From Minisyncoccota bacterium (GTDB lineage: Bacteria > Patescibacteriota > Minisyncoccia > Phycocordibacterales > JBAZVT01), in contig JBAZVT010000003.1 in assembly GCA_041660745.1 (NCBI GenBank), forward strand, positions 1,880 to 65,879: 64,000 nt of DNA, read 5' to 3'. The notes beneath the pieces were generated by a model. It was given only the letters and a program-made list of their open reading frames with translations. It did not search any database and was not told where the DNA came from. Position numbers and translations under genes: made by a program. Below are positions 50,186-51,482 of the stretch, in pieces (position 1 is the first letter of the stretch; each line of letters begins with the position of its first letter).

Positions 50186-50341
50186 TTTACGTAATATTTA
50201 ATTTAGAAATAATAATTACCAAAAACTTTTTTATTGACACACCCCACAAACCATTTTCTATATTGTATCACCCGCCCCACCAAAAATCTTCATTCCCTTT
50301 TAATAAAAACTGTGGATAACTTTTTCTTCCTTAGGACTCTT

Positions 50342-50383
50342 CCATAGGACCGCCCTATGTTTTCACATAGGGCGGTCCTATGG
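50342..50383. repeat. REP-like perfect palindrome flanking the HUH transposase (3' side)
   Basis: CCATAGGACCGCCCTATG-TTTTCA-CATAGGGCGGTCCTATGG. Confidence 0.9.
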
Positions 50384-50386
50384 AAA

Positions 50387-51082
50387 TTATTTTGGCTCAC
50401 CTCTTAAATCTCCAAGATCCCTGAACTCAAGCCAGTCAGAAACAATACTTTCAAAAGATGGCGCTGGAGACGAAAAGTAATCCGGAAACTCATCAGCTTT
50501 TAGTATTTTTGATTCAGGTCTTAAATTAAAGTTAATTTCCACATATTCCTTGTAACTTGAATATTTATAATTATCTAAGAAATTCTCAGCTTTTTGCATG
50601 TCCACAACCCCCCTCTCTTTCCACGCAGGATCAATAATCTTTACCGGATTTAAATGTATATATGAAACTAAATACTTTAAATATTCGTCGGTATTTGCAT
50701 GAACTGCTTTAAATCGGCTCTCAAAAAGACTTCCGGTCCGTGTATTTTTTCTATTGAAATACATTGAGTATGACGTAAGCAATTTACCCAAAAATTTACT
50801 TATACCACCTTCTTCTGTTTCTTTTAAAAGTATGTGGAAATGATTTGGCATCAAACAGTATGCGCCGACAGAAACAATACTATCTTTCTTTTGAAAATTA
50901 AAAATATCCTTAAATTCCTTCTCAATCTCCCTAAAAGTTATATTTTGAGATGTATTATAAACAAATAAACCTTTAATAAAACGTTGATAATCTCTTTCGT
51001 CCTGAAAAATAAAGCGTTTATCAACGCCTCGAGCATAAATGTGATAGTACTCTCCTACACTAAATTCGATTTTTCTTTGCAT
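50387..51082 (-). CDS. IS200/RAYT-type HUH (Y1) transposase
   Basis: HUH motif CLMPNHFHILL and the catalytic Tyr region LKYLVSYIHLNPVK. The overall pattern matches REP-associated tyrosine transposases. Confidence 0.85.
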   Translation of the reverse strand: MQRKIEFSVGEYYHIYARGVDKRFIFQDERDYQRFIKGLFVYNTSQNITFREIEKEFKDIFNFQKKDSIVSVGAYCLMPNHFHILLKETEEGGISKFLGKLLTSYSMYFNRKNTRTGSLFESRFKAVHANTDEYLKYLVSYIHLNPVKIIDPAWKERGVVDMQKAENFLDNYKYSSYKEYVEINFNLRPESKILKADEFPDYFSSPAPSFESIVSDWLEFRDLGDLRGEPK

Positions 51083-51103
51083 TTTTATAAGAATAGAGGT
51101 TTT

Positions 51104-51145
51104 ACATAGGACCGCCCTATGTTTTTACATAGGGCGGTCCTATGT
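51104..51145. repeat. REP-like palindrome flanking the HUH transposase (5' side)
   Basis: ACATAGGACCGCCCTATG-TTTTTA-CATAGGGCGGTCCTATGT, nearly identical to 50342-50383. Confidence 0.9.
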
Positions 51146-51146
51146 T

Positions 51147-51329
51147 CTATCTATTGCTATTGTCTAAAGCATTAATGACAGAAGATGGGGTTGGGTTGGA
51201 AGCACGAAGATCGTTGCCGGAAACATAGCTGTTGTAAGAGAGGATGCCGGTGACGATGAGGCTTGCAAGAAGGATCGCGATAAAACTGAGGAAAAAATTG
51301 AAGAATGTTTTATCGAAGCAGTCTGACAT
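51147..51329 (-). CDS. Possible 60-aa single-TM protein
   Basis: Internal Met of ORF 51147..51437: MSDCFDKTFFNFFLSFIAILLASLIVTGIL... No SD was seen. Confidence 0.25.
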   Translation of the reverse strand: MSDCFDKTFFNFFLSFIAILLASLIVTGILSYNSYVSGNDLRASNPTPSSVINALDNSNR

Positions 51330-51411
51330 TGTAATCGTATTATAACAAAGGCCTTCAGATAAGGGAAAAATGTTGCTCATAATCTGTGGATAACTCAAGA
51401 ATATATAAAAT

Positions 51412-51482
51412 GCATACGACCGCCCTATGTATGTCACGGGAAAATTCCCAACTCCCTACCCTAGGGATGTCCTATGTATACG
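51412..51482. repeat. Degenerate third copy of the REP-like palindrome
   Basis: CATACGACCGCCCTATGTATG ... CTAGGGATGTCCTATGTATAC, with about 28 nt inserted between the arms. Confidence 0.6.

What the first reader, a model, noticed from the sequence alone, without database searches (positions are those of the whole stretch)
50309..51482. HUH (Y1) transposase bracketed by near-identical perfect palindromes: REPtron- or IS200-like unit
The 231-aa ORF has the HUH motif (NHFHIL) and the YIHLNPVK tyrosine region typical of REP-associated tyrosine transposases. It is flanked 4 nt downstream and 22 nt upstream by 42-bp palindromes that are almost identical: CATAGGACCGCCCTATG-TTTT[CT]A-CATAGGGCGGTCCTATG, at 50342-50383 and 51104-51145. 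A third, degenerate copy lies at 51412-51482.

This is the arrangement described for RAYT/REP loci, where the enzyme is flanked by its cognate hairpins. It could also be a minimal IS200-type element of about 800 bp. No other copy of this palindrome is present in the 64-kb window.
Basis: partly seen in the sequence, partly recalled or inferred. Interest (0 to 1): 0.55.

Follow-up and report, generated by a model that had tools for sequence, protein, structure and literature searches.

The report
Domesticated Y1 transposase with cognate hairpins
A single-copy, catalytically intact HUH/Y1 "transposase" gene of a Patescibacteria (CPR) genome sits at a chromosomal position conserved across relatives and is bracketed by its own short hairpin repeats: a RAYT/REPtron-type arrangement, not an IS200 insertion sequence, in a lineage where this had not been described.

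Summary
A 231-aa ORF (50387-51082, minus strand) passes Pfam Y1_Tnp. Its closest solved fold is the E. coli REP-associated transposase. Two perfect, near-identical palindromes (50340-50385, 51104-51145) and one decayed copy (51413-51476) flank it; nothing similar occurs elsewhere in the 64 kb.

The IS200 reading fails. The gene is single-copy and has the class-2 Y---NP motif. It lies in the order EF-P/RecA/FtsK ... PG-binding protein - Y1 - 200-aa protein - LTD protein ... L10/L12, which recurs in eight of eleven relatives examined (~55% identity).

In nearly all those loci, including ones in a different gene context, the gene is flanked by palindromes that match within a genome but differ between genomes. 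All share an AGG-N5-CCT mini-hairpin core. The window's 42-bp palindrome is two such units inverted.

This is a REPtron-like system. However, the canonical GTAG head is absent, the NCBIfam RAYT cut-off is missed, and no high-copy dispersal is seen. Copies are few and cluster just upstream of the gene, bracketing small accessory genes.

In half the relatives, though not here, the Y1 gene carries its own hairpin in frame. A close relative (L042) lacks the Y1 block but keeps the hairpins. DNA cleavage and mobility are inferred, not shown.

The parts
50387..51082 (-). Y1 HUH (RAYT-like) gene, 231 aa. HUH is at H81/H83, the catalytic Tyr at Y141, N145 of YIHLNP, and an SS motif at S175-S176. The C-terminal tail is conserved.
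   Evidence: Pfam Y1_Tnp, 43.3 bits; these residues are invariant in 49 homologues. AF2 pLDDT 90; best PDB fold is 4ER8, E. coli TnpA_REP bound to REP, E 1.8e-5; single copy in the window.
50340..50385 (.). Palindrome 1, 1 nt after the stop codon. It is a doublet of two inverted AGG-N5-CCT units (50343-50359 and 50366-50382).
51104..51145 (.). Palindrome 2, 21 nt upstream of the ATG. It is the same doublet (units 51104-51122 and 51127-51145) in the same orientation as palindrome 1.
51413..51476 (.). Decayed third doublet: arms with 1 and 3 mismatches and a 30-nt spacer. It is orthologous to the intact unit CCCTAGGCCCGGCCTAGGG upstream of the small ORF in the close relative L042.
51147..51329 (-). 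Small 60-aa membrane-type ORF lying between the decayed doublet and palindrome 2, i.e. a gene bracketed by the hairpin units. It is conserved (about 81-84% identity) in two other samples.
   Evidence: in L042 the orthologue is bracketed by two AGG-N5-CCT units with no Y1 gene nearby.
44650..51103 (-). Block of about 6.45 kb (Y1, palindrome 1, the 202-aa gene, the 1263-aa LTD/beta-helix gene and its trailer). It is present here and absent from the close relative L042. The left limit is approximate. Palindrome 2 lies at one edge, and a palindrome at 44709-44741 lies about 60 nt inside the other edge.
50311..50319 (-). TTATCCACA (DnaA-box-like) 21 nt beyond palindrome 1, upstream of the 202-aa gene. 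It is context, not part of the Y1 unit. A second copy at 51385-51393 lies 19 nt beyond the decayed doublet.
   Evidence: 4 in the window against 0.55 expected; 30 in 300 kb of related loci, at conserved positions upstream of genes.

Best explanation
This is a domesticated, RAYT-like Y1 (HUH) single-strand DNA endonuclease/transferase gene with its cognate hairpin repeats: a REPtron-type locus of a Paceibacteria (CPR) chromosome.

Shown:
- The gene is intact, single-copy, conserved in its catalytic residues, and inherited at one syntenic position.
- It is bracketed by hairpin units that are identical within a genome and differ between genomes.
- All the units are built on an AGG-N5-CCT mini-hairpin.

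Inferred, by analogy with E. coli TnpA_REP and IS608 TnpA:
- A dimer binds the folded hairpin in single-stranded DNA (for example the lagging-strand template), cleaves next to it through a 5'-phosphotyrosine intermediate using HUH-bound metal, and rejoins strands.
- This copies or renews the short units. It would keep the two flanking doublets perfect and identical while the third copy decays.
- Its action is mostly local. Units accumulate in the few intergenic gaps just upstream of the gene rather than spreading in hundreds of copies.
For: Protein:
- Pfam Y1_Tnp.
- H81, H83, Y141 and N145 are invariant in 49 homologues.
- The AF2 model has pLDDT 90.
- The best PDB fold match is 4ER8, RAYT bound to REP, ahead of the IS608 and ISDra2 transposases.

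Synteny:
- The window has EF-P, RecA, FtsK, a PG_binding_1 protein, Y1, a 202-aa protein, an LTD/beta-helix protein, then L10 and L7/L12.
- The same order holds for P0050, P0110, P0006, P0094, P0016, P0109 and P0030, and in reduced form (large protein - accessory genes - Y1 - L10/L12, no LTD block) for P0070.
- Y1 identity between these genomes (52-65%) is in the range of FtsK and EF-P.

Hairpins:
- Matching palindromes lie on both flanks in the window, L017, L018 (downstream copy imperfect), L022, L023, L033, L035, L038 and L040, and partly in L031. This includes L023 and L035, whose neighbouring genes differ (L023 keeps only the upstream PG-binding protein).
- All share AGG-N5-CCT.
- No further copies occur within +-10 kb except upstream clusters.

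Signs of copying:
- In-frame copies of the genome's own unit lie inside the Y1 gene at codons 52-56 in L017, L038, L040 and L022, and more weakly in L035. One also lies inside a TPR gene.
- L023 and L026 carry the same Y1 protein but differ by two toxin-antitoxin (TA) cassettes bounded by the palindrome modules.

Selection on pairing:
- The orthologous unit in L042 differs from the window's at 4 of 17 positions. All four fall in two pairs that keep or extend pairing (my own count).
Against: - No cleavage, binding or transposition has been shown for any member.
- The canonical 5' GT(A/G)G guide of REPs is absent.
- NCBIfam REP_Tyr_transpos scores 43.9 bits against a cut-off of 80.
- The motif signature (NHFH, YIHLNP, SS tail, 231 aa) fits subclass 2.1 of Quentin et al. 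2018. That paper reports subclass 2.1 as not REP-associated.
- No dispersed copy occurs in 64 kb.
- The exact 18-mer occurs at most twice per genome in five of 185,579 representative genomes, so high-copy REP behaviour is not seen.
- L027 has different palindromes on its two flanks.
- L042 keeps intact units without a Y1 gene on its 10-kb contig.
- The window is rich in other long palindromes, 38 with stems of 9 bp or more. Some hairpin-by-hairpin coincidence is therefore possible.
Confidence: 0.65

Rival explanations
1. Cassette-building system. The Y1 enzyme and its hairpins excise and insert short gene-carrying segments bounded by the hairpins, in a single-strand 'peel and paste' manner. 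This would build a small array of accessory-gene cassettes immediately upstream of the Y1 gene, functionally integron-like but HUH-based. It extends the best explanation rather than contradicting it.
For: - Extra hairpin copies lie only upstream of Y1 in six of six loci that have extras: the window, L017, L023, L035, L038 and L040.
- They bracket small accessory genes: HicAB-like and RelE-like pairs, a gene next to a ParE-like toxin gene, TPR proteins, and the window's 60-aa ORF.
- L023 and L026 have the same Y1 protein and 99.5% nt identity downstream, yet two TA cassettes are present or absent with breakpoints in the palindrome modules.
- The 6.45-kb block missing from L042 ends at a hairpin unit.
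Against: - Loss of cassettes can be explained by ordinary homologous recombination between the repeats.
- In L023 the repeated module is larger than the palindrome (about 70 nt on each side), which suggests duplication of an intergenic promoter region.
- The sample is only about ten loci.
- The same cassette was never seen at two places.
- Hairpins may simply land in the nearest intergenic gaps.
Confidence: 0.15
2. A minimal IS200/IS605-type insertion sequence of about 800 bp (hairpin - tnpA - hairpin) that transposes as a unit.
For: - Y1_Tnp domain.
- Hairpins lie within 1-21 nt of both gene ends.
- The gene with its hairpins is found in different gene contexts in L023 and L035.
- A close relative lacks the gene at this locus.
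Against: - Single copy in the window.
- The nearest non-self homologue among 5.8 billion proteins is 57% identical, and most family clusters hold one sequence.
- The syntenic position is shared by genomes with RecA identity of 70-79%.
- The tyrosine motif is Y---NP, not Y---Q.
- Both ends carry identical perfect palindromes instead of distinct imperfect left and right ends.
- The segment missing from L042 is 6.45 kb and includes unrelated genes, not the 0.8-kb unit.
- Only one distant relative was found in IMG/VR.
Confidence: 0.06
3. The palindromes are ordinary bidirectional terminators or operator sites of a compact genome and have no functional link with the Y1 protein.
For: - The window holds 38 perfect hairpins with stems of 9 bp or more, most with A- and T-run flanks.
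- The consensus scan flags palindromes 1 and 2 as terminator-like on the plus strand.
- AGG-N5-CCT hairpins with A/T-run flanks exist far from the gene, at 33148 and 60524.
- L042 keeps the units without a Y1 gene nearby.
Against: - On the sense (minus) strand neither palindrome is followed by a T-run.
- They are the only near-identical long palindrome pair among the window's hairpins.
- The same bracketing recurs around Y1 genes in nearly all the loci examined, with genome-specific sequences and also in different gene contexts.
- Copies occur in frame inside coding sequence.
Confidence: 0.08

Closest known systems
REPtron: tnpA_REP / RAYT gene flanked by its REPs (E. coli yafM, Stenotrophomonas, Pseudomonas; Nunvar 2010 PMC2817692; Messing 2012 PMC3479197; PDB 4ER8)
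   Same: - Single-copy Y1 HUH gene with the Y---NP signature.
- Bracketed by short palindromes that match each other and co-vary with the gene between genomes.
- Best structural match.
- Doublets of inverted units, as in REPINs.
- The gene evolves fast compared with housekeeping genes, as Nunvar 2010 reported for rayt genes.
   Different: - No 5' GT(A/G)G head.
- Units are built on AGG-N5-CCT.
- No high-copy dispersed population was seen.
- NP(L/V)(R/K)xG is only partly kept (NPVKII).
- The NCBIfam RAYT score is below its cut-off.
- The host is a CPR bacterium.
- Synteny is kept over much deeper divergence than the subgenus-level vertical inheritance described by Bertels 2017.
TnpA_Y1 subclass 2.1 (Quentin et al. 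2018, PMC6006769) = Bertels Group 1 = 'TIRYT' of Di Nocera 2013 (PMC3733652)
   Same: HuH NH[YF]H (NHFH here), tyrosine motif Y[IV]HLNP (YIHLNP), F[EQ] in place of WQ, a conserved SS motif in the tail, and a length near the 238-aa median.
   Different: - That subclass was reported to have no REP-like flanking hairpins, only GGGG[AT][CG]A[CG]-type terminal inverted repeats in some members. Here perfect hairpin units flank the gene.
- No Bac_DnaA_C or HTH tail was detected.
- No CPR sequences appear in that study.
- Membership by their HMMs or MCL clustering could not be tested.
TnpA_Y1 subclass 2.4 (Quentin et al. 2018): REPs inserted in frame inside the tnpA_REP gene, and 'double foot' REPs
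   Same: Relatives of the window gene (L017, L022, L038, L040, weakly L035) carry their own flanking unit in frame inside the gene. The palindromes are symmetric ('double foot'-like).
   Different: - The insertion site lies before the HUH motif (codons 52-56), not between HUH and Y.
- The motif signature differs (YIxNNP in 2.4).
- The window gene itself has no internal copy (11 of 19 matches, chance level).
IS200/IS605 transposons (IS608, ISDra2)
   Same: HUH/Y1 fold. Hairpin-dependent single-strand chemistry is presumed. TTAC/TAC often precedes the unit, as at IS608 cleavage sites (seen directly in the sequences; not tested).
   Different: Class-1 Y---Q motif, multi-copy, mobile as a unit, distinct imperfect ends, often with tnpB. 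None of these applies here.

Membership tests
HUH Y1 transposase superfamily (Pfam PF01797) | Profile match above the gathering score; HUH motif and catalytic tyrosine; Y1 fold | tested here: met
   43.3 bits against a cut-off of 23. H81-F-H83 and Y141 are invariant. Foldseek hits 4ER8, 2A6O and 2XM3.
TnpA_Y1 class 2 (TnpA_REP-like; Quentin 2018) | Tyrosine context Y---NP rather than Y---Q | tested here: met
   YIHLNP, with N145 invariant and P146 nearly invariant (>=90%). The definition is given.
TnpA_Y1 subclass 2.1 / Bertels Group 1 | NH[YF]H, Y[IV]HLNP, SS tail motif, ~238 aa; assignment by MCL clustering and subclass HMMs | tested here: inconclusive
   All four signatures are present. The authors' HMMs and clustering were not available, and the family is hairpin-flanked, contrary to the subclass description.
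RAYT (Nunvar 2010) | Gene flanked by two REPs | tested here: met
   Palindromes lie 1 nt and 21 nt from the gene ends. The same holds in nearly all related loci examined.
RAYT (Nunvar 2010) | REP with a GT(A/G)G head at the 5' foot | tested here: not met
   No GTAG or GTGG lies at the foot of any unit. The feet read (T)TAC/A...GTA(A).
RAYT (Nunvar 2010) | NP(L/V)(R/K)xG motif after the catalytic tyrosine | tested here: not met
   NPVKII here, and NPVKxID in the family consensus. The glycine is absent (motif definition).
RAYT/REP system (Bertels 2017) | Flanking 16-mers highly repeated across the replicon (Groups 2 and 3: 57-140 occurrences) | tested here: inconclusive
   Only the 4 arm copies at the gene occur in 64 kb. 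The exact 18-mer occurs at most twice in any of 185,579 representative genomes. The window's own genome was not available whole.
NCBIfam NF047646 REP_Tyr_transpos (equivalog) | Score at or above the curated cut-off of 80 bits | tested here: not met
   43.9 bits.
IS200/IS605 insertion sequence | Y---Q motif; several near-identical copies; distinct subterminal left and right hairpins; mobile as a unit | tested here: not met
   Y---NP motif. Single copy. Identical perfect palindromes at both ends. Syntenic position in eight of eleven relatives examined.
REPIN (Bertels & Rainey 2011) | Two REPs in inverted orientation forming one hairpin, present as a replicating population | tested here: inconclusive
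   The doublet structure is met. No population was observed.

The most novel reading that the evidence does not exclude
The Y1 enzyme and its AGG-N5-CCT hairpins form an HUH-based gene-cassette system. A master copy of the hairpin is embedded in frame in the Y1 gene of many family members. Copies seeded from it bracket small accessory genes (toxin-antitoxin pairs, TPR proteins, small membrane ORFs), which are gained and lost immediately upstream of the enzyme gene. This would be a single-strand, integron-like platform in CPR bacteria.
Probability: 0.15. Interest if true: 0.8.

Novelty: new variant of a known kind. Interest (0 to 1): 0.5.

Why it matters
RAYT/REP systems are the best example of a transposase turned into a vertically inherited host gene. 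They are known almost only from Proteobacteria, Cyanobacteria and Bacteroidetes, and what they do for the host is still unknown.

This locus shows a large Patescibacteria family: at least 350 clusters at 50% identity. Five features stand out:
- The gene keeps one chromosomal position across deep divergence.
- Its protein motif signature matches a subclass that was thought not to be hairpin-associated.
- Its hairpins have a simple conserved core, AGG-N5-CCT.
- The hairpins stay few and local.
- In many members the hairpin also sits in frame inside the gene.

Small, streamlined CPR genomes with two to five hairpin copies would be a very tractable setting. They could be used to work out the cleavage site, the copying mechanism and the benefit to the host.

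Tried and rejected
- Genome-wide count of the palindrome. The window's genome is in neither searchable contig collection. The exact 18-mer scans returned only other CPR genomes, mostly single units without a Y1 gene.
- TTATCCACA as part of the Y1 unit or as a target of a DnaA-like tail. Rejected: it is a general motif upstream of genes in these genomes, and no DnaA_C or HTH domain was found.
- In-situ replacement by horizontal transfer as the reason L022 and L031 (RecA 95.6%) have Y1 at only 64.8%. Not needed: EF-P and the neighbouring genes are equally diverged.
- Sequence search of the PDB, with the single protein and with a profile. No significant hit was found; only the fold search linked the protein to RAYT.
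- Known RNA family. None reached its gathering score.
- Phage-borne relatives. One distant hit in IMG/VR.
- Homologues of the 202-aa neighbour, sought to find empty sites. Too divergent: only two hits. The small 60-aa ORF did lead to a close relative.
- Extended repeat modules around the hairpins. Present in L023 but not in L040, so not a general feature.
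Full report
OBSERVATION

The region reads as described. The ORF at 50387-51082 on the minus strand encodes 231 aa with NHFHIL and YIHLNPVK.

Two perfect palindromes flank it. One has 21-bp arms with a 4-nt loop at 50340-50385, 1 nt beyond the stop codon. The other has 19-bp arms at 51104-51145, 21 nt before the ATG. They are 95% identical over 43 nt.

As single-stranded DNA each folds at -24 to -26 kcal/mol, z about -12, on either strand.

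A decayed third copy has arms at 51413-51429 (1 mismatch) and 51460-51476 (3 mismatches) with a 30-nt spacer. It no longer folds better than shuffles.

With up to three mismatches, all 10 arm matches in the 64 kb are in these three places (0.09 expected).

Each arm is itself a mini-hairpin, ACATAGG-ACCGC-CCTATGT. The 42-bp palindrome is therefore a doublet of two inverted units.

THE PROTEIN

- It passes Pfam Y1_Tnp (43.3 bits, cut-off 23).
- It misses the NCBIfam RAYT equivalog (43.9 bits against 80).
- More than 7,800 homologues were found. The best non-self hit is only 57% identical, and the named ones are all Patescibacteria. The window's own protein is annotated in a Candidatus Paceibacterota MAG on an 80.8-kb contig.
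- An exhaustive search gives 350 clusters at 50% identity with E <= 1e-30.
- In an alignment of 49 members, H81, H83, Y141, N145, S175-S176 and several C-terminal residues are invariant. The enzyme therefore looks active, and its 85-aa tail functional.
- Sequence searches of the PDB found nothing significant.
- A confident AF2 model (pLDDT 90) matches E. coli TnpA_REP bound to a REP hairpin best (4ER8, E 1.8e-5). IS608 and ISDra2 TnpA follow.
- The signature NHFH, F[EQ], YIHLNP, SS tail and about 230 aa fits class 2, subclass 2.1, of Quentin et al. 2018 (Bertels Group 1). That subclass was reported as not REP-associated. No CPR sequence figures in that study.
- I found no description of this CPR family in the held literature.

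NOT AN INSERTION SEQUENCE

The window's gene order, by Pfam, is EF-P, RecA, FtsK, a 295-aa protein, a PG_binding_1 protein, the small ORF, Y1, a 202-aa protein, a 1263-aa LTD/beta-helix protein, then L10 and L7/L12.

The same order surrounds the homologues P0050, P0110, P0006, P0094, P0016, P0109 and P0030. It appears in reduced form around P0070 (large protein - accessory genes - Y1 - L10/L12, without the LTD block). The fragment L016 also shows it.

Only P0119 and P0113 sit in other contexts. P0119 still keeps the PG-binding protein upstream.

Between these genomes RecA is 69-79% identical, FtsK 52-63% and Y1 52-62%. In the closest pair (RecA 95.6%), Y1 at 64.8% equals EF-P and the neighbouring genes.

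There is one Y1 gene in the window and one distant relative in IMG/VR.

Taken together, this is a vertically inherited, fairly fast-evolving chromosomal gene.

THE HAIRPINS BELONG TO THE GENE

Matching palindromes lie on both flanks of the Y1 gene in the window, L017, L018 (the downstream copy imperfect), L022, L023, L033, L035, L038 and L040, and partly in L031. L027 has unrelated palindromes on its two sides.

The sequences differ from genome to genome, but every one has an AGG-N5-CCT core:
- window: CATAGG-ACCGC-CCTATG
- L033: CATAGG-GGTAC-CCTATG
- L023: CACAGG-GTAGT-CCTGTG
- L022: CCAAGG-CCCGG-CCTATG
- L017: CCAAGG-GGTCC-CCTTGG
- L018: CGGAGG-GCTAC-CCTCCG
- L035: AGAAGG-TCATT-CCTTCT
- L038: GGAAGG-CCCGG-CCTTCC
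- L040: CAAAGG-ACCGC-CCTTCG

The association holds in L023 and L035, whose neighbouring genes differ (L023 keeps only the upstream PG-binding protein). It therefore follows the Y1 gene and not its neighbours.

The palindromes lack a T-run on the sense strand. They match no Rfam family.

HOW MANY COPIES, AND WHERE

Within +-10 kb the only further copies lie just upstream of the Y1 gene:
- one in the window;
- three or four in L017;
- two in L023;
- one in L038;
- two in L040;
- one, 5 kb upstream, in L035.

They bracket small accessory genes: HicAB-like and RelE-like pairs, a gene next to a ParE-like toxin gene, TPR proteins, and the window's 60-aa ORF.

L023 and L026 encode the same Y1 protein and are 99.5% identical downstream. 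L026 lacks the two toxin-antitoxin cassettes, and the breakpoints lie in the repeated palindrome modules.

The exact 18-mer of the window's unit occurs in only five of 185,579 representative genomes and ten metagenome stretches. The named genome hits are all Patescibacteria. Copies are one or two per genome, mostly single units in intergenic DNA without a Y1 gene nearby.

High-copy REP behaviour is thus not seen anywhere for this unit. The window's own genome could not be scanned whole.

Other AGG-N5-CCT hairpins with different stems exist in the window at 33148-33168 and 60524-60556, against 0.14 expected per window. A related doublet lies at 54489-54529. A diverse low-copy population is therefore possible.

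A CLOSE RELATIVE WITHOUT THE GENE

The 60-aa ORF led to L042, which is 78-96% identical in nucleotides to the window across the shared genes.

There the PG-binding gene, its terminator, a unit CCCTAGGCCCGGCCTAGGG, TTATCCACA, the small ORF and a second unit CCTAGGCCGGGCCTAGGG are followed directly by the L10 leader. About 6.45 kb is missing: Y1, palindrome 1, the 202-aa gene and the LTD gene.

It follows that the units can persist without an adjacent Y1 gene, and that this locus is dynamic.

The window's unit and its L042 orthologue differ at 4 of 17 positions. These form two symmetric pairs that keep or extend pairing. By my estimate this has roughly a 1-in-1000 chance under unconstrained change. 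It indicates that the palindromic symmetry is preserved, by selection or by templated repair within the hairpin.

HAIRPIN INSIDE THE GENE

In L017 (23/23), L038 (25/25), L040 (18/19), L022 (15/18) and, more weakly, L035 (16/25), the Y1 gene carries its genome's own unit in frame at codons 52-56. It encodes peptides such as IQGVPLD, QEGRAFL and EGRSF. None of 300 codon shuffles reaches these scores for the first four (DNA).

The window's gene has none (11/19, chance level).

This recalls the in-frame REP insertions of subclass 2.4, but the site here lies before the HUH motif.

MECHANISM AND VERDICT

Shown:
- an intact Y1 HUH gene;
- inherited in place;
- bracketed by structure-conserving hairpins specific to each genome;
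- signs of copying, namely in-frame copies, local arrays and perfect identity of the two flanking doublets beside a decaying third.

Inferred from E. coli TnpA_REP and IS608 TnpA: the dimer binds the folded hairpin in single-stranded DNA, cleaves beside it through a phosphotyrosine link, and rejoins strands. This would renew and occasionally copy the units, mainly in cis.

The cleavage site is unknown. TTAC/TAC at the foot is a lead only.

I rate this a REPtron-type system in a new lineage with a new hairpin type and a low-copy, local habit. That makes it a new variant of a known kind.

The most novel reading still open is an HUH-based cassette platform with a master hairpin inside the gene.

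Noticed in passing
window 50311-50319, 51385-51393, 54091-54099 (all minus strand) and 30168-30176 (plus); also L016, L022, L027, L031, L038, L042: A perfect DnaA-box 9-mer, TTATCCACA (extended consensus AGTTATCCACAG/A), is about 8-12 times over-represented. It sits at conserved positions some 35-45 nt upstream of -10-like boxes of several genes. It looks like a general promoter-upstream element of these Paceibacteria, possibly DnaA or another factor acting as a regulator.
   Followed up: partly
window about 44650-51103, compared with L042 6288-6342: A 6.45-kb block (Y1, the 202-aa gene, the 1263-aa LTD/beta-helix surface protein) is present here and absent in a relative that is 78-96% identical in the flanking genes. 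A hairpin unit lies at the L042 junction and at one edge of the block, and a palindrome lies about 60 nt inside the other edge.
   Followed up: partly
window, whole; e.g. 4093-4133, 34363-34412, 60573-60605: The window holds 38 perfect hairpins with stems of 9-25 bp. Among them is a second repeated family with the stem AAGCCGCGCCC/GGGCGCGGCTT (4093 and 60573; related at 34363). Most look like bidirectional terminators.
   Followed up: no
window 33148-33168, 54489-54529, 60524-60556; L017 16242-16270: Further AGG-N5-CCT hairpins with other stems. AAAAAGG-TCGGA-CCTTTTT occurs once as a single unit and once as a doublet 21 kb away. ATATCAAGG-N5-CCTTGATAT occurs both here and in L017 at non-orthologous sites.
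   Followed up: partly
L023 3466-5733 compared with L026 1-640: Two strains with the same Y1 protein differ by two toxin-antitoxin cassettes (HicAB-like and RelE-like). Each cassette is bounded by the same palindrome plus about 70 nt of shared sequence on either side, which includes a promoter-like stretch.
   Followed up: partly
L017 10156-10178, L038 8949-8979, L040 6577-6598, L022 10287-10304: Relatives of the window's Y1 gene carry their own flanking hairpin unit in frame at codons 52-56 of the gene. In L017 the unit also lies in frame within, and at the C-terminus of, a neighbouring TPR gene.
   Followed up: yes
L018 8058-8732: A second, distant Y1 paralogue (about 26-33% identical by tblastn and pairwise alignment, NHWH motif) lies 1.3 kb upstream of the syntenic Y1 gene. 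A different palindrome, GGAAGCCCCCGTACGGGGGCTTCC, follows it.
   Followed up: no
window about 44430-44650: The sequence upstream of the L10 gene is conserved with L042 (about 71% by blastn, with long near-identical stretches in the pairwise alignment). It may be a ribosomal-protein L10 leader; this stretch was outside the Rfam search.
   Followed up: no
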